From Escherichia coli (lineage in GTDB: Bacteria > Pseudomonadota > Gammaproteobacteria > Enterobacterales > Enterobacteriaceae), in the NCBI RefSeq assembly GCF_024298765.1, contig NZ_CP101210.1: a DNA stretch of 64,000 nt, one strand, 5' to 3'. The notes under the pieces are model-generated. The model was not told the origin of the DNA and did no database searches. It was given only the letters and a program-made list of their open reading frames with translations. This document shows positions 22,070-45,076 of this stretch, in pieces; the stretch's first letter is position 1, and every line of letters starts with the position of its first letter. A program made the position numbers and the translations under genes.

Positions 22070-22105
22070 ATAGGGGAATTAAGCCTCTGAGTTCTTACGC
22101 CGAAC

Positions 22106-22861
22106 TCATACTGGTAACGCTAGTTGCTTTTTTTTAAACGCCTCAATGGTTGATTTATATTTCTCGCAAATCTCCTCTTCGGTAATATCACTATCTACGG
22201 CCAGATTCGCACTTACTATCGCATCCACTTGTTCGGCTAATTCCACTTGTTGGCAACCTGCATTAACCAGAAAATTATAAATAAGAGAGTAATCTTCATC
22301 CTCCAAAACAACAGAGGAACCATTACGAAAACGTTCATCCCCTCCATAGATTTTAAGCGCAAAGCCCAAAGATTCTATGACTATGGCAAAATTATCATCA
22401 ATTATTTTTTCGTAAATATACCATCCATCGCATTCTTTAATTCCACCTCCTGGTATTTGGAGGTCAAATTTACCCCGTTTTAATTTACTTACTATATCAT
22501 CCAATACAGCATAACCTAAAGACACGTCACCAAACGCCTGGCGAATATAACCTTTAATCCTTTCCGGTATGTCAGACTGTTTTTTCTGCAGAATATCCCA
22601 GGCATACAATCTTCTGTTTTGTTCTAACGGAAACTCGCGGTTTTTGAAATCCATGAATGAGTTATACTCATTTATTGTTATGGGAATTTCTTCGTATTCA
22701 AATCCACTGCCTCGCAATGTCATTATATATTCGGCACCGTTATCTTTAAGGCTGAAACTGATAAGAAACTTATCCATGGCGTTAACAGTTTCATTTTTTG
22801 ATGAAAGTACCTGATAACTATTTTTATCAATCTGAGTTGCGCAACGAAAGAACTCCCTCAA
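22106..22861 (-). CDS. ytfI: Uncharacterised protein YtfI (AT-rich gene; 5' region apparently frameshifted, see findings)
   Basis: 251 aa ORF from a TTG start; reading frame stays open 43 codons further upstream and an ATG-initiated ORF in another frame precedes it. Confidence 0.7.
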   Translation of the reverse strand: MREFFRCATQIDKNSYQVLSSKNETVNAMDKFLISFSLKDNGAEYIMTLRGSGFEYEEIPITINEYNSFMDFKNREFPLEQNRRLYAWDILQKKQSDIPERIKGYIRQAFGDVSLGYAVLDDIVSKLKRGKFDLQIPGGGIKECDGWYIYEKIIDDNFAIVIESLGFALKIYGGDERFRNGSSVVLEDEDYSLIYNFLVNAGCQQVELAEQVDAIVSANLAVDSDITEEEICEKYKSTIEAFKKKQLALPV

Positions 22862-23227
22862 AGTTAACAGGCTATCATAATTTGAAGTCCAATCTTTTTT
22901 ATTAAATGCATGCTGGATATTGTTAAAAAATTGTTTGAATGTGTTTTTGTATGCGATGATTTTACGAATAACTCCACCGCACCAATAAAATTATTGTGTC
23001 TGATCCTGGGTAACATATGGCTACCTTATTTTATTTGGTTATTTTATGTCGCCATTAAATATCTCATTATAGAAGTAAACTATCAAAAAACGCTCATTAT
23101 TAAAATATAACTTATTAGTAATTGAATTTTTGCACTTTAAATACAATCTCTTTTTATTTATAACTTTTTAGGTTGGGAGAAATCAGGATGGCAGAATCAG
23201 GAAATACACTGTTTCTGCCATCTGAAT

Positions 23228-29636: not shown

Positions 29637-30704
29637 CTACGCTTCCACCCACACCGACCCGCCATCATGGCGGTTCATCAGCGACCACAGCACATGGAAT
29701 TTCTCGCCTCTTTTATACTCCCCCTCCATTTTCCTGTCCGTCCATTCTGGCATCTGCTCTCCCTGCTCCAGTGTCACCGTCGCTTGTCTACCTTCTACAA
29801 AAATCGACCACTCCCCGCTATGAGGACAAGCTTCACCGCTAAAGGCCGCTATCCGCTGCCGGTCTGTAACATACTGCGCTTCGCGCTGTGGCCAGTTGTA
29901 CAACTCCTCCGGCATGCCCTGTGGGAAAAATCCCTCCGGCGGCACATTGATAAATCGGTTTGCCACCCGCCGTATACGTTTCCAATTGCATTTTGCCCAC
30001 GCCCCGCTTTCCCAGTAATATTCTTGTATCCCAGCCTCGTTGACATACTTCGTTCGTACCCGCCCCTGCCAAGCCTCGGGAATATGTTCACTCCGGTACA
30101 ACAGTTGGGCGCTGGCATCTGGGATATCCGGCAGATACAGGCCAGCCACCGTTACCGGGTCATCCTCACGCAGGTATACGCTACTATCCAGCTCATACAA
30201 CGGTAATTGCATCGGCAGGGCCAGCGGGCCGTGCAGACTTTCCTCATAATAATAAGTCAGTTCGCCGTCATACCAGTATCCGCCCGAGGTACGTCTGATT
30301 AAATTATTATAATGTGCACCTCGCCATTTCAGTCTGTCATACTGTTTTTGCGCGGCGAGTGACATCCAGTCCGACGGATAATCAATTAGTCCTTTCATAT
30401 CACTGCTAATATTGCCCCCGGATTGCAGTACCCGCAGGTCCCCCTGCTGTAGCTGAATAAAGTCATACTGTACCGACTTTAAAGTACTGCGGATATTGGG
30501 CAACACTCGCCCGCCCCAGACGACGTCAATCTGCTCGCACAGCGGACGACGGCGCACATCCAGCGGCATGGCCTTGCTCCACTCTGCCACCTGTCGCTCG
30601 CACAGCTCGACAAACTCCTGCCACCCCTCAAAACGACGCCGATAATATTCCGGCGACATTATTCTTTCCAGCAACCAGCACTCCTGTGGATGTAATATAG
30701 CCAC
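29637..30704 (-). CDS. Hypothetical Trp/Tyr-rich cytoplasmic protein (355 aa from GTG with AGGAG Shine-Dalgarno; ORF track gives 373 aa from ATG at 30758)
   Basis: Long ORF in the ytfE-cycA insertion; no signal peptide, no TM segment, no motif I recognise; 16 Trp by my count. Confidence 0.6.
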   Translation of the reverse strand: MAILHPQECWLLERIMSPEYYRRRFEGWQEFVELCERQVAEWSKAMPLDVRRRPLCEQIDVVWGGRVLPNIRSTLKSVQYDFIQLQQGDLRVLQSGGNISSDMKGLIDYPSDWMSLAAQKQYDRLKWRGAHYNNLIRRTSGGYWYDGELTYYYEESLHGPLALPMQLPLYELDSSVYLREDDPVTVAGLYLPDIPDASAQLLYRSEHIPEAWQGRVRTKYVNEAGIQEYYWESGAWAKCNWKRIRRVANRFINVPPEGFFPQGMPEELYNWPQREAQYVTDRQRIAAFSGEACPHSGEWSIFVEGRQATVTLEQGEQMPEWTDRKMEGEYKRGEKFHVLWSLMNRHDGGSVWVEA

Positions 30705-30958
30705 TTTATCTCCTGATTTATTAATTAATTGTCTATTGATACTTTTATTTCGGTACATAAATATTTGTTTGCAACTGAGACACAGCTATATACATATCCA
30801 CTTCATCTATCATCGGTACGCTGACCGTCAAAATAGACGCTGCGTTTATCGGCAGCGAAAGCGCCGAATGCCTGAAAACTGGCGGCATCAACATTAGGTT
30901 CACCGGATGGATTTTTCAGGACTTTGCCTGCCCAAAGGACAGAACGTCCATCGGTGAG

Positions 30959-31237
30959 TCAGGTATGCTGGCAATCCCCCTCATCATCGCAATCGAACTT
31001 ATCGGGATTAAAATCGGACAGTAACCGGGAATCTTGTTTATTGGCTAAATTGGCAATGCGCCAGAGGCGGGACAAATTAACGTCCGGCAGTTCGGAGAGG
31101 ATCTCATCTTTTTTCCCCTTCTGTTCGGCAACGTAAACAGTGCCTTTCTCCTGCTGGCGGTAATAAAAATCCGCGCCCCAGGAAGGTGAAATGGAGAGAG
31201 GTAATGCGGCGATTAATAACCAACTGCGCTTAACCAT
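30959..31237 (-). CDS. Hypothetical small secreted protein (signal peptide, acidic Cys-containing C-terminus)
   Basis: ORF 30959-31261; start taken at ATG giving MVKRSWLLIAALPLSISPSWGA signal peptide; C-terminus DCDDEGDCQHT. Confidence 0.5.
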   Translation of the reverse strand: MVKRSWLLIAALPLSISPSWGADFYYRQQEKGTVYVAEQKGKKDEILSELPDVNLSRLWRIANLANKQDSRLLSDFNPDKFDCDDEGDCQHT

Positions 31238-33083: not shown

Positions 33084-33704
33084 TTAGAGGATTTCCAGCA
33101 GTTCGACTTCAAACACCAGGGTGCTGAACGGAGGGATGGACGCGCCTGCGCCACGCTCGCCATATGCCAGTTCCTGCGGGATAGTCAGTTCCCATTTAGA
33201 ACCTACCGGCATCAGAGTCAGTGCTTCAATCCAGCCAGGGATCACGCCATTAACCGGGAATTCAGCTGGCTCGCCGCGAGCAACGGAGCTGTCAAACACG
33301 GTGCCGTCGATCAGTTTTCCGGTGTAATGAACACGAACGCGGTCGGTACGTGCCGGAATTGCGCCTTCACCCTGGTTGATCACGCGGAATTGCAGGCCAG
33401 ATTCGGTGCTATTTACACCTTCTTTTTTGGCGTTTTCTTCCAGGTATTTCACACCTTCAGCAGCCATCGCCTGGAAACGCTGACGACGAACGGCATCGGC
33501 GCGTTCGTGGATTTCACGCAGCGCGCGGTGCACCACATCAACCGGAACAGCCGGATGTTTGCCTTCCAGCGCATCGGCAATGCCTGCAACCAGTGCTTCT
33601 GGCAGCAGCCCTTCCAGGCCAGATTCACTCAGTTGTTGCCCTACCTGCAAACCAATGCCGTAGCTTGCTTGCGCTTCGATGGTGTCAAAAGTTGGGGTGG
33701 TCAT
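33084..33704 (-). CDS. fklB: FKBP-type peptidyl-prolyl cis-trans isomerase
   Basis: Start at [18 protein letters not shown] (206 aa); FKBP domain at C-terminus. Confidence 0.92.
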
Positions 33705-33921
33705 CGTATTTCCTTTCTTAGGGTATAAAGTAGCGGGCAGCATATCAGCCACACTTCTTTGGGTAAAACTTTGTCGCGGGAATGATGACAAATCCCGGGG
33801 AAAAAGAAACAATAGCAATATCCCGTATGAATATAATAAAGGCGGGTTTACCACGGACATCATAGCGTTAGCTTATTCATAGGCTATGATTGAGGAACAA
33901 GACGCGGAGCAGGAGGAAACC

Positions 33922-34560
33922 ATGCCCGGGCGCTTTGAACTAAAACCAACCCTGGAGAAAGTCTGGCACGCGCCGGACAATTTTCGCTTCATGGACCCGC
34001 TGCCGCCGATGCATCGTCGGGGGATCATTATTGCCGCCATTGTATTGGTGGTCGGATTTCTGCTTCCATCTGATGATACGCCCAACGCGCCGGTGGTGAC
34101 GCGTGAAGCACAGTTAGATATTCAGTCGCAATCACAACCACCGACAGAAGAACAGCTGCGGGCGCAATTAGTTACGCCACAAAATGATCCTGATCAGGTG
34201 GCTCCGGTCGCTCCAGAACCAATACAGGAAGGCCAGCCAGAAGAACAGCCGCAAACCACCCAAACGCAACCATTCCAGTCAGATAGCGGAATTGATAATC
34301 AATGGCGCTCCTATCGTGTCGAACCTGGTAAAACGATGGCGCAACTGTTCCGCGACCACGGACTGCCCGCTACCGATGTCTATGCCATGGCGCAGGTAGA
34401 AGGCGCGGATAAGCCACTGAGTAATTTGCAAAACGGGCAGATGGTGAAAATCCGCCAGAACGCCAGCGGCGTGGTGACGGGCTTAACCATTGATACGGGG
34501 AATAATCAACAGGTCCTGTTTACCCGCCAGCCGGATGGCAGTTTTATTCGTGCGCGGTAG
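33922..34560 (+). CDS. ytfB: Cell-division-associated protein YtfB (OapA/LysM-like C-terminus)
   Basis: Start at [10 protein letters not shown] (212 aa); single TM segment and Pro/Gln-rich linker. Confidence 0.88.
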
Positions 34561-35191
34561 ATGAAGGGTCAACCAAAAGCCAGCTAAGGATTGTCTCTTT
34601 GATGACCTTACGTCTGGCTTCCAGTGCCTGGGGTGAAACCATACTGATGTGATAAACCAGGCCAAGCGTATGCTGGTTGATCAAATAATATCCCCCAAGC
34701 GCAGCAATATTAATATTCACCTGCAATGGGTCGATATCTGGCTTAAAAATATTGTGTTTCTTCCCTTCATCCAATAAGGATTCCATTAACTGCAAGTGCG
34801 CATGGTTAATTTCTAAGAGACGCTGTGATTTTGCATAATGCACACCTTTACTTTGATTTTCACTATGCACAATTTTTAAAAACCAGGGATTAGAAATATA
34901 ATAATCCCATGTAAAATCGATTATTTTCTCAATGGCTTTCTGTGGCGGAAGATCTGAGAAATCAAGGGCCTTTTCTTTTTGTCGAATATCGTTCCAGGTA
35001 TATTCCAGTACTTCGATAAATAAATTTTCTTTATTACCAAAGTGGTGATAAACCGTCTGTTTACTGCACCCCGCGGCCTTGACGATATTATCGACTCTGG
35101 CCCCTTCGTAACCATATTCGGCAAATTCATTAACCGCGCATAACAGCAGCTTTTCTTTCAGGCTCTGTACGTTGCTGGTATCAAGATACAT
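34544..35191 (-). CDS. TetR/AcrR-family transcriptional regulator
   Basis: HTH region [44 protein letters not shown]; start taken at [11 protein letters not shown]-rich; divergent from the downstream operon. Confidence 0.8.
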
Positions 35192-35313
35192 AACGCTTCC
35201 CCACGACCTCTTCGTGGTGACTATCATAACCTGATTTGATTTCAGCTTCAGAAAAAAGGGCAAAAACTTGTACTTTCATCAGGTTATCAAATGTCCTGTG
35301 ATCGCCATCGCAT

Positions 35314-35335
35314 ATCAACCAACTAGATGGTTGAT
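35314..35335. promoter_or_regulatory. Candidate TetR operator (inverted repeat ATCAACCA-actaga-TGGTTGAT)
   Basis: Perfect 8-bp arms in the divergent intergenic region between the TetR gene and the SDR gene. Confidence 0.35.
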
Positions 35336-35403
35336 CTTTTTATCCTCCAGTCGCAAGCTAATCATCACTAAGGAAACAAAATTCAAAAAAAGAGAGCTAT
35401 TGT

Positions 35404-36195
35404 ATGAAATCCACTCGTCCTGTTGCCGTGATTACCGGAGCCGCACGTGGTATTGGAAAGGGCTGTGCGCTGGAGCTTGCGCGTGGCGGATTTAATCTGC
35501 TGATTAATGATCGTCCGGATACCGATAGCGTAGAAAAATTACATGCCACACAACAAGAATGTCTGGCGGAAGGCGTGGAAGTGATTTGCTTCCCTGCTGA
35601 TGTTGGCGATCTCTCCCTGCATGAAGAGATGCTCGACGCAGCGCAAAACCAGTGGGGACGTCTGGACTGCCTGCTCAACAACGCAGGCATTTCAGTGAAA
35701 AAACGCGGTGATCTTCTCGACCTCGAACCAGACAGCTTCGACCAAAATATTGCCATTAACACCCGCGCACCGTTCTTCCTCGCTCAGGCATTCAGTAAGC
35801 GCTTACTGGCACAGCCGAAACCGGAAGCAGAACTGCCGCACCGCTCGATTATTTTCGTCAGTTCCATCAACGCCATCATGCTGGCGATGAATCGCGGCGA
35901 ATATACCATTGCCAAAACTGCCGTCTCTGCCGCTGCTCGTCTGTTTGCTGCTCGCCTTTGTAATGAACAAATTGGCGTTTATGAAGTGCGTCCTGGTCTC
36001 ATCAAAACCGATATGACTATTCCGGCAACGGCCTATTACGACGAACTGATTGCCAAAGGTCTGGTGCCGTGGGGACGTTGGGGTTATCCGGCTGATATTG
36101 CTTCCACTGTCCGCGCGATGGCGGAAGGTAAACTGATTTACACCTGTGGTCAGGCGGTCGCCATCGACGGCGGCTTAAGTATGCCGCGCTTCTGA
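35404..36195 (+). CDS. Short-chain dehydrogenase/reductase (SDR) family oxidoreductase
   Basis: 263 aa; TGAARGIG cofactor motif near the N-terminus. Confidence 0.85.
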   Translation: MKSTRPVAVITGAARGIGKGCALELARGGFNLLINDRPDTDSVEKLHATQQECLAEGVEVICFPADVGDLSLHEEMLDAAQNQWGRLDCLLNNAGISVKKRGDLLDLEPDSFDQNIAINTRAPFFLAQAFSKRLLAQPKPEAELPHRSIIFVSSINAIMLAMNRGEYTIAKTAVSAAARLFAARLCNEQIGVYEVRPGLIKTDMTIPATAYYDELIAKGLVPWGRWGYPADIASTVRAMAEGKLIYTCGQAVAIDGGLSMPRF

Positions 36196-36204
36196 GGCTG
36201 AATC

Positions 36205-37047
36205 ATGAGAGATCTGTTACAACGCCCGGATTTATTCAGTATCAATACCGCGACACTGGGCTATAAAACGCCGCTGCCCGCCATTATTGATGCCTGCGCC
36301 GCACGCGGTATTGGCGCCATTGCCCCCTGGCGCAGGGAGTTGCAGGGTGAAGATCTCCAGCAAATCGCCCGCCAGCTTGCTGCCAGTAACATAAACGTTT
36401 CCGGTTTGTGCCGTAGCACCTACTACACCGCACCGACGCTGGCGGAGCGCAAACTGGCGATTGACGATAACCGCCGGGCGCTGGACGACGCCGCTGTACT
36501 GAACGCCGCCTGTTATATGCAGGTGGTTGGCGGTCTGCCAATGGGAACAAAAGATCTGTATGAAGCGCGGGAACAAGTGAAACAAGGGATTCGCCAGTTA
36601 CTGCCACATTCGAAAGAGGTCGGCGTGCCGATTGCGCTGGAGCCGCTACACCCGATGACCGCAGCCGATCGTTCCTGTTTGTGCACGTTACGTCAGGCGC
36701 TGGACTGGTGTGATGAACTCGATCCCGATGGCGAATTTGGCCTCGGCGTGGCGGTAGATGTCTACCATGTCTGGTGGGACCCGGATCTCGCCAGTCAGAT
36801 CCTGCGTGCCGGAAAACGCATCCTCGCGTTTCATGTTTCCGACTGGTTAGTGCCGACCACCGATCTGGTCAATGACCGTGGAATGCCGGGAGATGGTGTC
36901 ATCAATATTCCGTCAATTCGTCGGCTGGTTGAAAACGCCGGATTTAATGGCGCTATTGAACTGGAAATATTCTCACCGTACTGGTGGCAGAAAGATATTA
37001 ACAGCACGCTGGATATTAGCGTCGATCGCATCGCACATTATTGTTAA
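36205..37047 (+). CDS. Sugar phosphate isomerase/epimerase (xylose-isomerase-like TIM barrel)
   Basis: 280 aa; family assigned from overall resemblance only; 9-nt gap to SDR gene. Confidence 0.7.
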   Translation: MRDLLQRPDLFSINTATLGYKTPLPAIIDACAARGIGAIAPWRRELQGEDLQQIARQLAASNINVSGLCRSTYYTAPTLAERKLAIDDNRRALDDAAVLNAACYMQVVGGLPMGTKDLYEAREQVKQGIRQLLPHSKEVGVPIALEPLHPMTAADRSCLCTLRQALDWCDELDPDGEFGLGVAVDVYHVWWDPDLASQILRAGKRILAFHVSDWLVPTTDLVNDRGMPGDGVINIPSIRRLVENAGFNGAIELEIFSPYWWQKDINSTLDISVDRIAHYC

Positions 37048-37056
37048 GGAATAATC

Positions 37057-37833
37057 ATGAGTGACCAACCCGTTCTGTTCAGCAGAGCGGCGGCTTCTTG
37101 CCGCCTGACATTGAACCGTGAAGATAAATGTCATGCTATTAATGAAGAAATGATCGAATCTCTCGACCATTATTTAAATGAAATTGAAAACGACACCACA
37201 TTACGATTAGTCGAATTAACGGCAACCGGCGATAAATTCTTTTGTGCGGGCGGCGATATTAAATCGTGGTCGGCCTATTCGCCATTAGATATGGGCAGAA
37301 AATGGATTAAACGCGGTAACGAGGTTTTTAATCGCCTGCGCAACTTACCCCAATTAACCGTTGCGAATCTCAACGGTCATACCATCGGTGGCGGTATTGA
37401 ACTTGCCTTGTGCTGCGATATTCGTATCGCTCGCCCCGGCGCGAAATTCTCTAACCCGGAAGTGATGCTCGGCATGGTGCCTGGCTGGATGGGCATTGAA
37501 CGCGTGCTTAATCAGGTTGGCCCGGTGGTCGGTCGCCAGATGCTGATGCTGGGTAAACGCCTGACGGCGCAGGAAGCTCAGGTGGCGAATTTAATTGATG
37601 AAGTGGTAGAAAAAGAACAGGTGGAAAGCTGGATGGCGAACCAGTTAGCGCAGCTGGAAAAATGTGGTCCGGTGGCACTGGCACATATTAAGCAACTGAT
37701 TCTGGCGCTGGAAAATAAACACGCCGATTACTCCCACCAGTTACTGGCTGGATTAATGTCCGCCACTCAGGATTGCCAACAGGCGACGCACGCATTTGCC
37801 GAAAAAGCCGGCGTGAGCTTCCACAATCAATAA
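37057..37833 (+). CDS. Enoyl-CoA hydratase/isomerase (crotonase) family protein
   Basis: 258 aa; crotonase-fold motifs (FCAGGDIK, GHTIGGGIELAL). Confidence 0.85.
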   Translation: MSDQPVLFSRAAASCRLTLNREDKCHAINEEMIESLDHYLNEIENDTTLRLVELTATGDKFFCAGGDIKSWSAYSPLDMGRKWIKRGNEVFNRLRNLPQLTVANLNGHTIGGGIELALCCDIRIARPGAKFSNPEVMLGMVPGWMGIERVLNQVGPVVGRQMLMLGKRLTAQEAQVANLIDEVVEKEQVESWMANQLAQLEKCGPVALAHIKQLILALENKHADYSHQLLAGLMSATQDCQQATHAFAEKAGVSFHNQ

Positions 37834-37842
37834 GGAAATTGT

Positions 37843-39384
37843 ATGCGTAAGTTATCAACCGCCGAGACACTGGCGGCGCAAATTCAGGACGGCGCAACCA
37901 TTGCCATTAGCGGCAACGGCGGCGGCATGGTGGAAGCTGACCATATTCTGGCCGCCATTGAAGCGCGCTTTCTGCAAACCGGACACCCGCGCGATCTGAC
38001 ATTAATCCACTCGCTGGGTATTGGCGATCGCGACAGCAAAGGCACTAACCGTTTTGCTCACGCCGAAATGCTCAAACGCATTATTGCCGGACATTTTACC
38101 TGGTCGCCCAAGATGCAGGAACTGGTGAAAAGCAATGCTATTGAAGCCTACTGTTTCCCTGGTGGCGTAATTCAGGCACTGCTGCGGGAGATCGGTGCCG
38201 GACGTCCGGGGCTTTTTACCCACGTTGGGCTGGGATCGTTTGTTGATCCACGCAATGGTGGCGGTAAGTCGAATGAATGCACGACCGACGACCTGGTAGA
38301 ACTGATTGAAATCGACGGTGAAACCAAACTCCGCTATCGCCCTTTCAAAGTGGACTACGCGATTTTGCGCGGCACCTATGCCGATCCGCGTGGCAACGTT
38401 AGCCTCGAAGAAGAAGCGATTGATATGGATAGCTATTCGATGGCGCTGGCAGCACACAACAGTGGCGGCAAAGTGTTTGTACAGGTGCGCGATGTACTGG
38501 AAGCTGGCGCCATTGAACCTCGCAAGGTCAAGCTACCGGGGATTCTGGTCGATGGTATCGTTGAACACCGCGAACAACCGCAAACCTATCTTGGCGGTTA
38601 CGACCTGACCATCAGCGGTCAGCATCGCCGTCTAAGTTCTAACGACGCTATTGAACTGGTTAGTCATCCGGTGCGTCGCCTGATTGCCCGTCGGGCAGCG
38701 CGGGAACTGGCGGCAGGTGCTTCAACCAACTTTGGCTTTGGTATTCCCGGCGGTATTCCTGGGGTTGCACTGCGCGAAGGCGTGCCTTATCAAAGTTTGT
38801 GGCTGAGTGTAGAACAGGGTGTACATAACGGCATGATGCTGGATGATGCTCTGTTCGGCTGCGCCCGTAACGCCGATGCCATTATTCCATCACTCGATCA
38901 ATTCGAATTCTACAGTGGCGGCGGTATCGATATCACCTTCCTCGGCATGGGAGAGATGGATCGGTACGGTAACGTCAACGTATCCCATCTCAATGGCAAT
39001 CTCATTGGCCCCGGCGGCTTCCTCGAAATTGCGCAAAACGCCCGTAAAGTGGTGTTCTGCGGTACGTTCGACGCTAAAGGCAGCAAGATTGATGTAACGC
39101 CTGATGGCCTGCATATCGCCCAGTCAGGTCAAATCCCCAAACTGGTTACCCAGGTGGAAAAAATTACTTTTAGCGCCGCATACGCACAGCAAAGCAGTCA
39201 GGAAGTGCTGTATATCACCGAACGTGCGGTATTCCAGTTAACGGCAGAAGGCGTTGAATTAATTGAGATCGCCCCTGGCGTAGAGATTGACCGCGACATT
39301 CTGCCGTATATGGCCTTCCGTCCGATTATCAGGCACCCACGCCTGATGGAAAGTAGCCTGTTTACGCCAATGGAGGATGCATGA
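37843..39384 (+). CDS. Family I CoA-transferase (fused alpha/beta; propionate/acetate CoA-transferase-like)
   Basis: 513 aa; assigned by resemblance to YdiF/Pct-type CoA transferases. Confidence 0.75.
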   Translation: MRKLSTAETLAAQIQDGATIAISGNGGGMVEADHILAAIEARFLQTGHPRDLTLIHSLGIGDRDSKGTNRFAHAEMLKRIIAGHFTWSPKMQELVKSNAIEAYCFPGGVIQALLREIGAGRPGLFTHVGLGSFVDPRNGGGKSNECTTDDLVELIEIDGETKLRYRPFKVDYAILRGTYADPRGNVSLEEEAIDMDSYSMALAAHNSGGKVFVQVRDVLEAGAIEPRKVKLPGILVDGIVEHREQPQTYLGGYDLTISGQHRRLSSNDAIELVSHPVRRLIARRAARELAAGASTNFGFGIPGGIPGVALREGVPYQSLWLSVEQGVHNGMMLDDALFGCARNADAIIPSLDQFEFYSGGGIDITFLGMGEMDRYGNVNVSHLNGNLIGPGGFLEIAQNARKVVFCGTFDAKGSKIDVTPDGLHIAQSGQIPKLVTQVEKITFSAAYAQQSSQEVLYITERAVFQLTAEGVELIEIAPGVEIDRDILPYMAFRPIIRHPRLMESSLFTPMEDA

Positions 39385-41453
39385 GTCAGCTTGATGAGGC
39401 CATCCTTGATGCACTGACACACGTTACTTTCCCAAAGGGTTTTGCACAGGCAGAACCCGCATGGGTTGTCACGGTAGACGGTGTTGATTACCCACTCTGG
39501 AAAACAGATGCCCTGGTAGTCGGCAGTGGTGCAGCCGGGCTACGTGCAGCTGTGGAACTTAAACGCCGCCAGCAAAATGTGTTAATCGCCACCGCCGGGT
39601 TATATATGGGGACATCGGCATGTTCTGGCTCTGATAAACAAACACTGTTTACCGCCGCTACCGCGGGCAACGGCGACAACTTCGCCAAACTGGCAGAGGC
39701 ACTGGCGAGCGGTGGGGCGATGGATCACGACACCGCTTATGTCGAAGCGGTAGGTTCTCTGCACACTCTTGGCGGGTTGCAATATCTTGGTCTGGAATTA
39801 CCGGAAGATCGCTATGGCGCGATTCTTCGTTATCAAACCGACCATGACGAAGCCGGGCGTGCAACCTCGTGTGGGCCGCGTACCTCAAGGTTAATGGTGA
39901 AAGTGCTGCTGGAAGAAGTACAGCGTCTTGCTATCCCAATGTTGACCAGTGCAACAGTGATTAAACTGCTGCATCAGCGTGACGAAAACGGTGAAGACCG
40001 TGTGGCGGGGGCAATCCTCGCGACCGGTCATCGCGCCCATAACCCATGGGGGCTGGCAATTGTGACTGCGCCCAATGTGGTACTGGCAACAGGAGGGCCT
40101 GGCGAGCTTTATCGCGACAGTGTGTATCCACACAAATGTTTCGGCTCGCTGGGGCTGGCGCTGGAGGAAGGTCTGACGCTAACCAATCTGACTGAAAGCC
40201 AGTTTGGTATCGGCACACCGCGCAGCACGTTTCCGTGGAATTTGTCCGGCACCTATGTGCAGGTGATCCCGTATATCTATTCCGTGGATGCCGAGGGCAA
40301 CGAGTATAACTTCCTCGCGGATTACTATCGCACCACCCAAGAGCTGGCTTCAAACATTTTCCGTAAAGGCTATCAGTGGCCGTTCCACGCCACGCGGGTA
40401 ATGGATTTTGGCTCCAGCTTGTTAGATATGGCGGTGGCGCAAGAGCAGCAACATGGTCGCCAGGTGTTTATGGATTTCAATCGCAATCCTGAAGTGGTGC
40501 CGGGTGACCTGCCCTTCTCATTAGATCGACTGGACGACGACGTTCGCGCGTATCTGGAAAATAACGACGCTCTGGCACCATCGCCCATCGAACGACTGCA
40601 ACGAATGAATCCGCTGTCTATCTCGCTGTATAAGATGCACGGTTACGATCTCACCACGCAGCCATTGCAGTTTGCCATGAATAATCAGCATATGAATGGC
40701 GGCATTGAAGTGGATATCTGGGGACAAACATCTCTGCCCGGTTGTTTTGCTGTGGGGGAAGTTGCTGGCACACACGGCGTCACCCGACCTGGCGGTGCGG
40801 CATTGAATGCCGGGCAGGTTTTTGCTGTTCGTCTGGCACGTTTTATTGGTTGCACGCAAAAGCGGAATATTGATGGAGATATAGCACAGCTGGCAGCTCC
40901 GGCACTGGCTTCTATAAGAGAGATCATTACTCAGGCGCACGATAACGGAACCGGGATGCCGTTGTCGGTTGTGAGGGAAAAAATTCAGGCACGAATGTCT
41001 GACCATGCGGGATTTATTTGTCATGCCGATAAAGTCCGACGCGCCACTCGTGATGCCCTGCTATTGAGTGAATTTGTGCAACGGCATGGATTGGCAATCA
41101 AACATGTGGGTGAAGTTGCCGAGCTGTTTATGTGGCGGCATATGGCGCTGACTTCTGCCGCGGTATTAACACAATTAACGCATTATATTGATGCTGGTGG
41201 TGGTAGCCGTGGGGCGCGTATGGTTATAGATCCACAAGGCAAATGCCTACCACAAACTCGTCGCGGCGCAAAAGAAGAATGGCGTTTTCGCTCTGAACTC
41301 GCTGAAGACAAAAATCACAAATTAACAATTCAATATTCGCAAGGTTCTTTTATTACCGAAGTAAAGTCTTTACGTATTCAACCGTGTATTAACGGTATTT
41401 ACTTTGAAAAAAACTGGCCAGACTTTTTAAAGGGAGACATTTACACACAATAA
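39381..41453 (+). CDS. FAD-dependent oxidoreductase (fumarate reductase/succinate dehydrogenase flavoprotein-like)
   Basis: 690 aa; dinucleotide-binding motif VVGSGAAGLRAAVEL; ATGA overlap with the upstream CoA-transferase. Confidence 0.75.
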   Translation: MSQLDEAILDALTHVTFPKGFAQAEPAWVVTVDGVDYPLWKTDALVVGSGAAGLRAAVELKRRQQNVLIATAGLYMGTSACSGSDKQTLFTAATAGNGDNFAKLAEALASGGAMDHDTAYVEAVGSLHTLGGLQYLGLELPEDRYGAILRYQTDHDEAGRATSCGPRTSRLMVKVLLEEVQRLAIPMLTSATVIKLLHQRDENGEDRVAGAILATGHRAHNPWGLAIVTAPNVVLATGGPGELYRDSVYPHKCFGSLGLALEEGLTLTNLTESQFGIGTPRSTFPWNLSGTYVQVIPYIYSVDAEGNEYNFLADYYRTTQELASNIFRKGYQWPFHATRVMDFGSSLLDMAVAQEQQHGRQVFMDFNRNPEVVPGDLPFSLDRLDDDVRAYLENNDALAPSPIERLQRMNPLSISLYKMHGYDLTTQPLQFAMNNQHMNGGIEVDIWGQTSLPGCFAVGEVAGTHGVTRPGGAALNAGQVFAVRLARFIGCTQKRNIDGDIAQLAAPALASIREIITQAHDNGTGMPLSVVREKIQARMSDHAGFICHADKVRRATRDALLLSEFVQRHGLAIKHVGEVAELFMWRHMALTSAAVLTQLTHYIDAGGGSRGARMVIDPQGKCLPQTRRGAKEEWRFRSELAEDKNHKLTIQYSQGSFITEVKSLRIQPCINGIYFEKNWPDFLKGDIYTQ

Positions 41454-41545
41454 TTTCCAATATTTCCTCTGTACCTGATTTTTATTGCCTATTACATGGA
41501 AATACCAACAACCAGGGTTTATTAATATAATTAAAAGGTTTAAAA

Positions 41546-42823
41546 ATGAATAAAATAAAGAATTATCGATGGTATATGATTGCCCTCGTATGCTTTATCA
41601 CTGTAATCAATTATCTGGACAGAACGGCGTTAGGTATTGCGGCTCCAACGATTATGGAGACAACCGGAATAACCAAAGAACAATATTCATGGATTGTCAG
41701 TGCATTCCAGTTGGCCTATACATTAGGGCAACCGGTAATGGGCTTCTTTATTGATACCGTGGGTCTGAAGTTAAGTTTTGCGATATGTGCCGCAATTTGG
41801 GGCCTGGCGACAATGGGCCATGCACTAACCGGAACGTGGTCTGGTCTGGCATTTATGCGCGCCCTGATGGGTTTCAGCGAAGCGTCGGCAATTCCGGCGG
41901 GTGTAAAAACCGCATCAACATGGTTCCCGGCAAAAGAGCGTGGCGTGGCGACAGGTGTTTTCAATATGGGCACCTCACTCGGCGCGATGCTTGCTCCACC
42001 GTTGATTGCCTGGTGCATTATGTTTCATAGCTGGCAATTTGCGTTTATTGTTTCAGGTAGCCTTGCTTTGCTCGCGGCTTTATTTTGGTTCTTTTGTTAT
42101 AAAGATCCGAAAGATGCCAAACGCCTTTCTGATGAAGAGCGCCACTATATTGAATCAGGACAAGAACAGCATCTTAAAACAGATAAGAAAGAAAAAACAT
42201 CAATCAAGCATATCCTCAGCCAACGTAATTTCTGGGGGATTGGCATCGCGCGTTTTCTCGCAGACCCGGCATGGGGAACCATTAACTTCTGGGTGCCGAT
42301 TTTCTTCGTCGAAACGCTGCATTTTAGCCTGAAAGAAATTGCCATGTTCGTCTGGCTGCCTTTCCTGCTGGGCGATCTCGGCTGTTTAGCCAGTGGTTTT
42401 GTCGCGAAGTTCTTCCACGATCGCGGCGTGAGTTTAATTAACTCACGAAGAATTACCTTCACTATTGCAGCCGTCATTATGATGACGATTGGCCTGGTGA
42501 GTATTGTCGAAAATCCCTACATTGCCGTATTACTGATTAGTATTGGCGCGTTCTCGCATCAATGCCTTTCTACTGTAGCAGCAACTCTGGGTGGCGATCT
42601 GTTCAAAAAAGACGAAGTAGCTACCGCAGTGGGTATGGCAGGAGCCTGTGCGTGGAGCGGTCAGTTGATTTTCAACCTGTTCATCGGGGCATTCGTTCAC
42701 ATTATCGGCTTCGCGCCGTTCTTTATTGCCCTGGCTTTCTTTGACATTATTGGCGCCATTGCGCTGTGGATGCTTATCAAAGTTAAAGACGAAGAACTAC
42801 AAGTACAGTTAGCGACAAGCTAA
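41546..42823 (+). CDS. MFS transporter (anion:cation symporter family, hexuronate/glucarate-transporter-like)
   Basis: 425 aa 12-TM ORF; N-terminus NYLDRTALGIAAP typical of ExuT/GudP-like carriers. Confidence 0.82.
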   Translation: MNKIKNYRWYMIALVCFITVINYLDRTALGIAAPTIMETTGITKEQYSWIVSAFQLAYTLGQPVMGFFIDTVGLKLSFAICAAIWGLATMGHALTGTWSGLAFMRALMGFSEASAIPAGVKTASTWFPAKERGVATGVFNMGTSLGAMLAPPLIAWCIMFHSWQFAFIVSGSLALLAALFWFFCYKDPKDAKRLSDEERHYIESGQEQHLKTDKKEKTSIKHILSQRNFWGIGIARFLADPAWGTINFWVPIFFVETLHFSLKEIAMFVWLPFLLGDLGCLASGFVAKFFHDRGVSLINSRRITFTIAAVIMMTIGLVSIVENPYIAVLLISIGAFSHQCLSTVAATLGGDLFKKDEVATAVGMAGACAWSGQLIFNLFIGAFVHIIGFAPFFIALAFFDIIGAIALWMLIKVKDEELQVQLATS

Positions 42824-42832
42824 TTATTTTAC

Positions 42833-42875
42833 ATAGAAACGCTATAATTTAGCTTTGTAGCGTTTCTATTTTTCT
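42833..42875 (+). terminator. Rho-independent terminator after the MFS gene
   Basis: ATAGAAACGCT...AGCGTTTCTAT 11-bp stem followed by TTTTCT. Confidence 0.6.
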
Positions 42876-42960
42876 CATAAATTAAACGTCTCTTCCAAAA
42901 CGTTCAGTATCTACTGGCATTGCTTCGCAAATTTATGATTTAGATATCAAAATAACTATT

Positions 42961-44228
42961 CTAAATTGCCCCCCTGAATGCCTCTGCCATTAACTCTTGC
43001 TCACGACCAGGTAATCGAAGACGCTCGGCAATGATTCGCCACTGACTGACAATCCCTCTAAAATTAGCAATAATGTCATCTGCTTCTGTCAAACCAAGTC
43101 GAAAATACTCCGCAACTTCTCGAGCTAATTCCAAATCAAGTGCATTATCATTTCTGTAATATTGAGTTTTAGACCGTCAGACCTGGCAACAGGATTCAAA
43201 TCATATGCCTCAGAAAGCCGCCAACCTTTTCCCGGTATCAAGATATATCCATGATTACGTAAATGGTCATCGGTATTAGAAACAAGAATATTAAAAACAA
43301 TCCTGGACCAGAGTTCCTTAAGGTCAGTATTAGTCTGCGCTCCATGTCTGATAAGAACATCTGCTAATTCCAGATAACTCACACCTGTAGAGGCATCTTC
43401 ACCATCCTGATGCCTGGTTAGTGTCATAGCCGAAGCAAAATGCAGACGCCTTCCCGCATTAGTGCGGTCAAAACGACGAACCATAAAACAATGGTAATTG
43501 CTGGCAAATTTATGCGCCTGAGCAGGTGCAACATTCAGTCCACAGCCAACAGCAAGTGCATTAACGACCATTTCCCATCCACCAACATCATACTCATCTT
43601 TTACACTGGGAAATTTAGCGATGTAGAGATGCCCAGCTTCATCAACAACACTGGCTTTCGGACGTGCCCCCCCTAATGATCCCCCCGGAGCGATTAGCAT
43701 TCTTAACCATTTTTGCCCCATTAGCTCTTTATTATCAGGATCTTCTTCAATTGCCCGGCTAGCCCTTTCCAGACTCGCTATTTCGGTAAATGGTGGGGCT
43801 GCAACATCAATGCGATTATCAAGAAACTCTCCAGCGTCTTCACGTTTGTATCGAAGAGCCCCAACCCGATAAAGATCATGAACACCTAGTAGATAATCAG
43901 ACTCATAAAGGTGGGAGTCTTTATCACATAACCCGTCTCGAATATCCCTCTCAAAACGACGCTTCATTAGCATACGCCCCCAACGATCCGGGCAGGAATC
44001 ACTAAATGCACCAAATTTATCCTTTGGAGGAATTGGGTACTGTGCTCCCTCATACAACATTATTTCAGGATCTAACTGAATGAAATTAAGTGAAGGATCT
44101 GCAAGCGCCTTTTTATCGTACTCAAACTCAAATATCTCACGCGTCCGAGTGCGGCGACTGTGTAAATAACCAATCCGCTCCGGACCATCCAGGCCTTCCC
44201 AATCCGCATACACTCCGATTAATGCCAT
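42961..44228 (-). pseudogene. HipA-family serine/threonine kinase toxin, frameshifted (367-aa ORF plus ~56 codons continuing in another frame)
   Basis: HipA motifs (APGGSLGGARPK, DDHLRNHG, AYDLNP); ORF stops at 43125 but frame continues to stop at 42961 after a 1-nt shift in an A run near 43151-43153. Confidence 0.7.
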
Positions 44229-44230
44229 AA

Positions 44231-44722
44231 TTAATTTCCTTTTAACGGTTTTTTTATCGGTTTTAATAGTGCTGCAAGAGAGGTTGATGTTTCTCCTGTA
44301 ATAGATGGCGTCGAGCCTTCTGCCAGTGCTGTTAAATCCGTGGTGAGATGACCTTCTTTCTCGTGCCTCATCTGCAATGAGGCTGTCTGAGAACCTTCTT
44401 CATTCTTACTTGATGCACGAGAAAGCCCTCTTTTTTTAATCAAACGGGAATCCTGGAGCTGACGCCCTAAGTCGTCTTCAGCTGCAAGCTTATTTAAATC
44501 CGTTTCCAGGCCCAAAACCTGCATCACAGACAAATATGCCCCTATCGTGACCCCTGCACTTCCTGACTCCAGAGAGCGCAATGTTATTGGCGACATCCCA
44601 GCACGTTCAGCAACTTGCTTTGCGGTAAGCCTGCGTCGTAAACGAGCAAGTTTCAGCCGCTCACCAAATTCACTAAGCATCTGATTCGTATAAGGGAGTA
44701 ACGGTGCTGTTTTTTTACCCAT
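44231..44722 (-). CDS. HipB-like XRE-family HTH antitoxin with long Ser/Thr-rich C-terminal extension
   Basis: 163 aa; [26 protein letters not shown]; stop 2 nt before hipA-like start. Confidence 0.75.
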
Positions 44723-44742
44723 AGTGATAATATTTTATCTTT

Positions 44743-44763
44743 TTATGGCTATGATAGCCATAA
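44743..44763. promoter_or_regulatory. Perfect 21-bp palindrome TTATGGCTAT-G-ATAGCCATAA upstream of hipB-like gene (candidate autoregulatory operator)
   Basis: 10-bp arms, 21-41 nt upstream of the hipB-like start codon. Confidence 0.4.
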
Positions 44764-45076
44764 TATTAGCATTTATTGGATTGAACGCACCTGCAAAGCG
44801 TTCAAGATTACGAAAGTGATGGTATTTTATCTTTTTATATATAAAAACAATAAAATAACAGCACATTCATATATAACATATTGTTTTTATTATCATACAA
44901 GTGAGACGATCGCTGTATTGATGCTTTTGTCGTGTTTTACGCGTAAAAAACATGACACGAACTACCAGCGGCGAGGCTGGGGGCCAGGTATGGGTACTGC
45001 GAACTTTTTATAAAAGGAATAGCAAGAGATTTATGGAGGGAACGTCTGTTTCTGCGGTTTTTATCACTTAAAAGCA

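What the first reader, a model, noticed from the sequence alone, without database searches (positions are those of the whole stretch)
34544..34560. Convergent overlap between ytfB and the TetR gene
The 3' ends of ytfB (+) and the TetR-family gene (-) overlap by ~17 bp with no intervening terminator. This marks the junction between core genome and the accessory block and could allow transcriptional interference.
Basis: seen in the sequence. Interest (0 to 1): 0.25.

Follow-up and report, generated by a model that had tools for sequence, protein, structure and literature searches.

The report
Ordinary tail-to-tail ytfB/TetR gene overlap
Two E. coli genes that face each other really do share their last 17 bases, but this is a common, already annotated arrangement, and it is not the edge of the variable gene block.

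Summary
ytfB (+, 33922..34560, stop TAG) and a TetR/AcrR gene (-, 34544..35191, stop TAA) share 17 bp (34544..34560). RefSeq annotates the same overlap, including in K-12, where the TetR gene survives only as the pseudogene ytfA.

The overlap-type junction is in 5005 of 5426 complete E. coli genomes, in other Escherichia species and in Klebsiella spallanzanii. Other alleles have a 0-bp gap (389 genomes), a 12-bp gap (10 genomes) or a 15-bp gap (Entomohabitans). The tight packing is constant; the overlap itself is not.

The overlap arose because the short spacer shrank and TetR lost its own stop. Its variable tail now runs on to a TAA formed by the complement of ytfB's Phe-Ile codons.

It is not the core/accessory junction. 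The K-12 deletion starts about 400 bp further on, inside TetR at about 34946, and the TetR 3' end is present in nearly every genome.

There is indeed no terminator between the genes. Published K-12 data place the ytfB mRNA 3' end at window 34627, at the foot of a stable hairpin (34577..34620) embedded in the TetR coding sequence. A bicyclomycin-sensitive region lies near 34766. Transcripts could therefore overlap by at least 84 nt, but interference is untested.

Verdict: ordinary, low interest.

The parts
33922..34560 (+). ytfB coding sequence (212 aa, cell division protein YtfB, OapA/LysM-like); stop TAG at 34558-34560
   Evidence: ORF list; RefSeq annotation of the identical strain 104; Pfam LysM_OapA 3e-35, reaching the penultimate residue
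34544..35191 (-). TetR/AcrR-family regulator gene (215 aa); stop TAA is the complement of 34544-34546; intact counterpart of the K-12 pseudogene ytfA
   Evidence: (TetR_N and TetR_C_29; the domain ends 14 aa before the C-terminus); dN/dS 0.05-0.10
34544..34560 (.). 17-bp shared stretch. It covers the last 5 sense codons plus stop of TetR (STAHE*) and 2 nt of the Phe codon plus Ile-Arg-Ala-Arg-stop of ytfB. Phase is 123:132.
   Evidence: Sequence; ORF ends computed; phase from coordinates (own arithmetic)
34577..34620 (+). 18-bp hairpin in the ytfB 3' UTR, lying antisense within the codons for [15 protein letters not shown] of TetR
   Evidence: Fold; -19 to -25 kcal/mol, z -4.6 to -6.4 in Escherichia; 94% of cells paired in 11 sequences with 2 compensatory pairs; degraded in the EC05 allele (my hand count of 11 of 18 pairs on the sequence) and weak in K. 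spallanzanii
34619..34628 (+). Position of the mapped primary 3' terminus of ytfB mRNA in K-12 (dominant position is window 34627; 67 nt after the stop)
   Evidence: TRS Supplementary Data 2 and 4 of PMC10687069: peak 4428011-4428020, dominant 4428012; exact string mapping to the window; K-12 sequence identical here
34766..34766 (+). Position of the bicyclomycin-sensitive 'Rho termination region' reported antisense to ytfA in K-12 (resolution is hundreds of nt)
   Evidence: PMC7815308 Supplementary file 2: 4427873 (-), Rho score 9.65, p 8.4e-39; mapped; modest C>G bias at 34641-34760
34945..34946 (.). Breakpoint of the K-12-type deletion. To the right, K-12 has yjfZ instead of the TetR N-terminal half and the operon. 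This is one real variable/conserved boundary.
   Evidence: Match ends at query position 1067; pseudogene annotations; sliding identity
34651..34651 (.). Site where IS609 (tnpA/tnpB) interrupts the TetR remnant in O157:H7 and related genomes
   Evidence: Match ends at query position 772; annotation of the O157 locus

Best explanation
This is an incidental, long-standing tail-to-tail overlap with no dedicated function. ytfB and the TetR gene converge with almost no spacer in every relative found. In the common Escherichia allele only 4 nt remain between the conserved Pro codon of the TetR tail and the ytfB stop. TetR has therefore lost its own stop, and its non-domain tail reads 17 nt into ytfB until it meets TAA. 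That TAA is the complement of TTA inside ytfB's conserved Phe-Ile codons (TTT-ATT). With no intergenic DNA, each transcript must end inside the other gene. For ytfB, the mature 3' end lies at the foot of a stable hairpin encoded within the last conserved codons of TetR. It forms either directly or, more likely, by exonuclease trimming after Rho-dependent termination further downstream. Shown: the overlap, its distribution, the alternative geometries, the hairpin, and the K-12 3' end. Inferred: the direction of evolutionary change, Rho involvement in this strain, neutrality of the overlap, and where TetR transcripts end.
For: Junction geometries: +17 bp in E. coli, E. albertii, E. whittamii, two other Escherichia genomes and K. 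spallanzanii; 0 bp in the CS5L/TW10828 allele; a 12-bp gap in the EC05 allele; a 15-bp gap in Entomohabitans. Census: 5005, 389 and 10 of 5426 genomes. TetR tails after the conserved SWLL differ in length and sequence: [33 protein letters not shown]. They lie outside the Pfam domain. YtfB's C-terminus ([SN]FIRA[RQ]) is conserved and lies inside its domain. An 8-bp indel separates the overlapping and abutting alleles. Phase 123:132 is the commonest for convergent overlaps of 5 nt or more, and stop-codon loss is the accepted origin (PMC2174442). Seven convergent pairs lie in the 29.5 kb around the locus and only this one overlaps. In BL21 and TW10828, ytfJ and cysQ also overlap, by 11 bp. The ytfB 3' end maps to window 34627, 7 nt past the hairpin at 34577-34620. 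A Rho region maps near 34766. No Rfam family matches.
Against: The overlap-type junction is highly conserved (at least 99% identity in 4184 genomes) and recurs in K. spallanzanii with a different tail. This could reflect selection rather than inertia. The hairpin is degraded in the EC05 allele and weak in K. spallanzanii, so its role is not universal. All transcript data come from K-12, where TetR is a truncated pseudogene. The Rho score uses 800-nt windows, and its downstream window includes yjfZ, which is on the same strand and may itself respond to bicyclomycin. No data exist for the TetR transcript.
Confidence: 0.75

Rival explanations
1. Regulatory coupling of the excludon type. Convergent transcription and complementary 3' regions let ytfB expression lower TetR expression (and so de-repress the adjacent catabolic operon), or the reverse. 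The mechanism would be polymerase collision or RNase III cleavage of the RNA duplex.
For: There is no terminator between the genes. ytfB transcripts extend at least 67 nt, and probably about 200 nt, into TetR in K-12. The minimum complementary region is therefore 34544-34627, 84 nt. This layout is one of the recognised excludon arrangements (PMC7154746). Tight packing is kept in every relative.
Against: No expression data link the two genes. The overlap is lost in natural alleles, and about 2270 genomes (5415 minus 3146) keep the arrangement with a dead TetR. TetR-family repressors are usually weakly transcribed (general knowledge). ytfB read density is also low in K-12 (0.18-0.25 read starts per nt), so collisions would be rare.
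Confidence: 0.12
2. The overlap is the scar or boundary of an inserted accessory island.
For: The operon to the right is present in only about 58% of E. coli genomes (3146 of 5426 cover at least 80% of 33880-35400). In the rare EC05 allele, similarity to the window stops exactly at the ytfB stop.
Against: The TetR 3' end is near-universal and the K-12 breakpoint is at about 34946, inside TetR. The TetR gene is adjacent to ytfB in all other Escherichia species found and in two other genera. No mobility gene or tRNA is annotated at the junction. No repeat search was run there. The diverged allele spans both genes.
Confidence: 0.04
3. The hairpin at 34577-34620, read on the - strand where UUUUGGUU follows it, is the intrinsic terminator of the TetR gene. 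On this view the annotated TetR tail and the overlap would not be expressed.
For: The - strand hairpin is -16 to -25 kcal/mol. In the window, BL21, K-12 and CS5L alleles a U-rich run follows it.
Against: Termination there would cut the mRNA about 25 nt before the TetR stop, and before the stop in every allele, giving non-stop mRNA. Other Escherichia have UUCUGGUU or UUCUCGUU instead, and Entomohabitans has no U run. In most Escherichia the + strand version is more stable because of G-U pairs. The mapped 3' end is on the ytfB strand.
Confidence: 0.03
4. Annotation artefact: one of the two reading frames is not a real gene or ends elsewhere.
For: None beyond the general frequency of mis-called ends.
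Against: Stop codons are unambiguous in the sequence. Both proteins have strong family matches and evolve under purifying selection.
Confidence: 0.01

Closest known systems
ytfA (pseudogene) / ytfB overlap of E. coli K-12 MG1655 (b4205/b4206)
   Same: Identical junction sequence and the same 17-bp overlap: 4428079..4428095 in K-12, window 34544..34560.
   Different: In K-12 the TetR gene lacks its N-terminal 82 codons and its operon, which yjfZ replaces. The window carries the intact 215-aa gene and the operon.
Convergent (tail-to-tail) overlapping gene pairs of prokaryotes
   Same: Short 3' overlap in phase 123:132, explained by loss of a stop codon and extension to the next one. E. coli K-12 has 58-75 such pairs (PMC2174442; PMC4161906).
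   Different: Nothing substantive. 17 bp is longer than the modal 4-bp class but within the usual range.
Terminators or 3'-end hairpins embedded in the partner's coding sequence at convergent overlaps
   Same: In 19 of 58 E. coli convergent overlaps, one gene uses a terminator lying in the other gene's coding sequence (PMC2174442). Here the ytfB 3' end sits behind a hairpin inside TetR.
   Different: No U-tract follows this hairpin on the ytfB strand (CCAGUGCC follows it). It therefore looks like a protective stem for a Rho-terminated, trimmed transcript rather than a canonical intrinsic terminator.
Excludon / overlapping 3' UTRs of convergent genes
   Same: Convergent genes with no terminator between them, producing complementary 3' regions (PMC7154746, Fig. 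3b).
   Different: The defining reciprocal effect on expression has not been shown here, and the two functions (cell division/adhesion versus a catabolic repressor) have no evident opposition.

Membership tests
Convergent overlapping gene pair | Two real protein-coding genes on opposite strands whose 3' ends share nucleotides | tested here: met
   Stops at 34558-60 (+) and 34546-44 (-); family matches; dN/dS 0.02-0.18; the same overlap in RefSeq
Convergent overlapping gene pair | Overlap conserved in orthologous pairs | tested here: inconclusive
   Kept in 5005 of 5426 E. coli genomes, four other Escherichia genomes and K. spallanzanii. Replaced by a 0-bp, 12-bp or 15-bp gap in other alleles and in Entomohabitans
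Excludon / antisense 3' UTR regulation | Transcripts of the two genes overlap | tested here: inconclusive
   The ytfB 3' end lies 67 nt past its stop, inside TetR, in K-12. There are no data for the TetR transcript or for a strain with intact TetR
Excludon / antisense 3' UTR regulation | Expression of one gene lowers expression of the other in cis | not testable with these tools
   Needs strand-specific expression measurements in engineered strains
Bidirectional intrinsic terminator between convergent genes | G+C-rich hairpin flanked by an A-tract upstream and a U-tract downstream, placed after both stop codons | tested here: not met
   No terminator-like site at the junction. The hairpin at 34577-34620 has a U-rich run on the - strand only and lies upstream of the TetR stop
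Genomic island boundary | The presence/absence breakpoint among strains coincides with the site, with integration signatures | tested here: not met
   Breakpoints are at about 34946 (K-12) and about 34651 (IS609). The diverged tract spans both genes. No tRNA or integrase is annotated at the junction. Only 10 genomes have a breakpoint at the ytfB stop
TetR/AcrR family regulator | N-terminal TetR-type helix-turn-helix plus a C-terminal ligand/dimerisation domain | tested here: met
   PF00440 2.3e-14 and PF17938 (TetR_C_29) 5.7e-30. No NCBIfam equivalog reaches its cut-off, so the ligand is unknown
YtfB / OapA family | OapA N-terminal motif and C-terminal LysM-like OapA domain | tested here: met
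   PF08525 1.8e-8 and PF04225 3e-35; 99% identical to K-12 YtfB

The most novel reading that the evidence does not exclude
The conserved hairpin embedded in the last conserved codons of TetR would be a dual-use element. It would define and stabilise the ytfB mRNA 3' end. The resulting antisense 3' UTR would then tune TetR levels, and through them the adjacent uncharacterised CoA-dependent catabolic operon, according to ytfB transcription. This would be an excludon-like link between a cell-division/adhesion gene and a metabolic switch.
Probability: 0.06. Interest if true: 0.35.

Novelty: already known. Interest (0 to 1): 0.1.

Why it matters
It matters little. The result corrects a mis-placed island boundary. 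It shows that K-12 ytfA is the stump of an intact regulator-plus-operon unit that is ancestral to Escherichia. It also gives a worked example of how convergent overlaps arise (spacer erosion and stop loss) and where the transcripts of such pairs end (inside the partner gene, behind an embedded hairpin). Anyone engineering ytfA/TetR or ytfB, for instance by deletion or CRISPRi, should know that the ytfB 3' UTR and its hairpin lie inside the TetR/ytfA sequence.

Tried and rejected
1. The consensus terminator scan of 33700-35600 found nothing at the junction. It found only a weak - strand site at 34354..34340 and the ytfB-internal site at 33961..33978.
2. Folding 140-nt segments around the overlap gave non-significant z-scores (-1.1 to -1.4), except for the segment holding the hairpin (z -2.5).
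3. The - strand reading of the hairpin as the TetR terminator was rejected, because it precedes the TetR stop in every allele.
4. Rfam with permissive thresholds gave no match in 33700-35500.
5. I looked for 3'-end data from a strain with intact TetR. The BL21(DE3) Term-seq paper (PMC9023263), Dar & Sorek 2018 (PMC6061677) and the Rend-seq annotation paper (PMC11092163) have no supplementary text held. The TetR 3' end therefore remains unknown.
6. C/G bias for rut sites is only modest: 1.3-1.4 at 34641-34760 on the + strand, and 1.25-1.5 at 34543-34384 on the - strand.
7. A literature search on yjfZ and ytfA gave nothing on the function of the operon or on the junction.
8. The genome-contig scan used TetR as the query. 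Species that have ytfB but lack TetR (for example Salmonella) were therefore not examined for their ytfB 3' flank.

Full report
**Observation**

- The window here is E. coli. It is 100% identical over 33880-35400 to strain 104 (NZ_CP029164.1).
- On the + strand, ytfB ends ...AGT TTT ATT CGT GCG CGG TAG, with the stop at 34558-34560.
- On the - strand, a TetR/AcrR gene ends ...TCT ACC GCG CAC GAA TAA, with the stop on the complement of 34546-34544.
- RefSeq annotates the same coordinates: ytfB 33922..34560 (212 aa) and TetR 34544..35191 (215 aa) (window = locus + 19879).
- Both are real genes. YtfB matches LysM_OapA and OapA_N. The regulator matches TetR_N and TetR_C_29.
- Pairwise dN/dS against diverged alleles and other genera is 0.02-0.18 for both genes.
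- A different start codon cannot remove a 3' overlap, and the stops are unambiguous.

**How unusual it is**

- It is not unusual. E. coli K-12 is reported to have 58 (PMC2174442) or 75 (PMC4161906) convergent overlapping pairs.
- By my arithmetic the two frames are in phase 123:132. That is the commonest phase for convergent overlaps of 5 nt or more (49%).
- The same overlap is in MG1655, between ytfB (b4206) and the pseudogene ytfA (b4205).
- In BL21 and TW10828 the nearby pair ytfJ/cysQ also overlaps, by 11 bp.

**Distribution and alternative geometries**

| Junction type | Where found | E. coli genomes (of 5426) |
|---|---|---|
| 17-bp overlap | E. coli, E. albertii, E. whittamii, two other Escherichia genomes, K. 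spallanzanii | 5005 |
| 0-bp gap (stops abut, TGA\|TTA) | Diverged E. coli allele (about 80% nt identity; CS5L, TW10828) | 389 |
| 12-bp gap | Third E. coli allele (EC05) | 10 |
| 15-bp gap | Entomohabitans teleogrylli | not applicable |

- The K. spallanzanii TetR is 89% identical. It keeps a 17-bp overlap although its tail sequence is different.
- Beyond these taxa, the closest TetR relatives are only 38-40% identical, in Alphaproteobacteria.

**Origin of the overlap**

- After the conserved ...ETILSWLL, the TetR tails differ: [33 protein letters not shown].
- These tails lie beyond the Pfam TetR_C_29 match, which ends 14 residues before the C-terminus.
- YtfB's C-terminus ([SN]FIRA[RQ]) is conserved and lies inside its LysM-like domain.
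- The spacer between the conserved Pro codon of the tail and the ytfB stop is 21 nt (EC05), 12 nt (CS5L), 7 nt (K. spallanzanii) and 4 nt (common allele).
- An 8-bp indel separates the abutting allele from the overlapping one.
- Where TetR's private stop is gone, its frame runs on until TAA. That TAA is the complement of TTA spanning ytfB's Phe-Ile codons TTT-ATT.
- In the CS5L allele these codons are TTC-ATC, so no stop would exist there.
- This is the stop-loss/extension route accepted for convergent overlaps. The direction of change (spacer erosion) is my inference.

**It is not the core/accessory junction**

- 5415 of 5426 genomes match the region, and 3146 cover at least 80% of 33880-35400, meaning they have an intact TetR.
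- K-12-type genomes match up to query position 1067, which is window 34946. They then carry yjfZ in place of the TetR N-terminal half and the six-gene operon.
- O157-type genomes additionally have IS609 inserted at about 34651.
- In the 389-genome allele, the strongly diverged tract (69-80% identity) is about 34000-35000. It covers ytfB and TetR together, while much of the operon is 87-100% identical.
- Only the 10-genome EC05 allele has its similarity breakpoint at the ytfB stop, and there the genes do not overlap.
- TetR sits next to ytfB in all other Escherichia species found. The block is therefore ancestral to the genus and variable by loss.

**Where transcripts end**

- No terminator-like site exists at the junction, and there is no Rfam match.
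- Seventeen nt after the ytfB stop lies an 18-bp hairpin at 34577-34620. It is antisense to the TetR codons for [15 protein letters not shown].
- Its energy is -19.2 kcal/mol here and down to -25.2 in other Escherichia, with z of -4.6 to -6.4 against shuffles.
- Across 11 sequences, 94% of cells pair and two pairs show compensatory changes. One (C-G/G-C/U-G) falls at synonymous third positions of a Thr codon and a Val codon.
- These sequences are related and the structure was derived from one of them, so this is supportive evidence, not proof.
- In the EC05 allele I count only 11 of 18 pairs by hand (sequence). In K. spallanzanii the hairpin is weak (-13.1 kcal/mol, z -1.6).
- Published K-12 data agree with a role on the ytfB strand.
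  - TRS analysis of RNAtag-seq lists a primary ytfB 3' terminus at 4428012 (peak 4428011-20; listed 3' UTR length 68) (PMC10687069).
  - By exact string match this is window 34627, 7 nt past the hairpin foot. K-12 is identical to the window over this stretch.
  - Adams et al. list a Rho termination region at 4427873 (-), antisense to ytfA, which maps to window 34766. The Rho score is 9.65 and p is 8.4e-39; upstream/downstream reads are 219/39 untreated and 185/318 with bicyclomycin (PMC7815308).
  - Those authors note that Rho-terminated RNAs are trimmed by 3' exonucleases.
- The simplest reading is Rho-dependent termination some 100-200 nt into antisense TetR, followed by trimming back to the hairpin.
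- Caveats apply. The Rho score uses 800-nt windows, and its downstream window includes yjfZ on the same strand. All the data come from a strain in which TetR is a stump.
- On the - strand the same hairpin is followed by UUUUGGUU. It precedes the TetR stop in every allele, so it cannot be TetR's terminator.
- Where TetR transcripts end is unknown. There is only a modest C>G bias at 34543-34384 and a weak hairpin at 34354-34340.

**Interference**

- The minimum complementary region, if TetR is transcribed to its stop, is 34544-34627 (84 nt). This matches the excludon layout of convergent genes that lack a terminator between them (PMC7154746).
- Nothing shows a reciprocal effect.
- Natural alleles lose the overlap, and about 2270 genomes (5415 minus 3146) keep the junction with a dead TetR.
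- ytfB read density in K-12 is low.
- I rate regulatory coupling at about 0.12 and an incidental arrangement at about 0.75.

**Verdict**

This is an already annotated, ordinary convergent overlap of low interest. The one small addition is that the "missing" terminator of ytfB is in effect a hairpin-defined 3' end embedded in the TetR coding sequence.

Noticed in passing
window 33961-33987 (+), inside ytfB, 65 nt after its start codon: A terminator-like hairpin (GTCTGGCACGCGCCGGAC followed by AATTTTCGCT) coincides with a strong ORF-internal Term-seq 3' end reported in K-12 at 4428652 (-). That position maps to window 33987, and the end is scored as not Rho-dependent. It suggests premature termination, or a short 5' RNA from ytfB.
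   Followed up: partly
window 35314-35335, between TetR (35191, -) and the SDR gene (35404, +): A 22-bp near-perfect palindrome, ATCAACCAACT|AGATGGTTGAT, lies in the divergent promoter region. The terminator scan also flagged it. It is a plausible TetR operator. Its conservation was not checked.
   Followed up: no
window 35404-42823 (+): An uncharacterised six-gene operon under the TetR gene. It encodes an SDR (PRK12745-type '3-ketoacyl-ACP reductase'), a xylose-isomerase-like TIM barrel, an enoyl-CoA hydratase, a FadX-like CoA transferase, a 690-aa FrdA/NadB-like flavoprotein and an anion:cation-symporter-type MFS transporter. In the diverged allele a TRAP transporter replaces the MFS gene. 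The substrate is unknown. K-12 and O157 lack the operon.
   Followed up: partly
window 42961-44722 (-): A frameshifted hipA-family toxin gene and its HTH partner lie between the MFS gene and rplI in this strain. They are absent at this place in BL21 (gap at 42800-45000).
   Followed up: no
window about 34000-35000, compared with L005/L006: In 389 E. coli genomes the ytfB-TetR pair is only 69-80% identical to the window, while fklB (33200-33900) is 99-100% identical and much of the operon is 87-100% identical. This looks like a mosaic tract, presumably imported by recombination. RefSeq no longer names that YtfB 'YtfB' in most of these genomes.
   Followed up: partly
window 29637-31237 (-) and 22105-23016 (-): This strain has strain-specific hypothetical genes between ytfE and cycA (one of them a pseudogene) and between ytfJ and cysQ. 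K-12 and BL21 lack them, and CS5L has different genes at the first site. In BL21 and TW10828, ytfJ and cysQ instead overlap convergently by 11 bp.
   Followed up: no
window 34875-34902 (+), inside TetR, antisense: The best sigma-70-like match in the region (TTTAAA-16-TATAAT, 10 of 12) lies on the + strand inside the TetR gene. In K-12, a constitutive-promoter/H-NS region is reported between yjfZ and ytfA (PMC3946193). A preprint reports that CRISPRi of the pseudogene ytfA changes expression of other genes. My speculation is that this effect might come from disturbing the ytfB 3' region.
   Followed up: no
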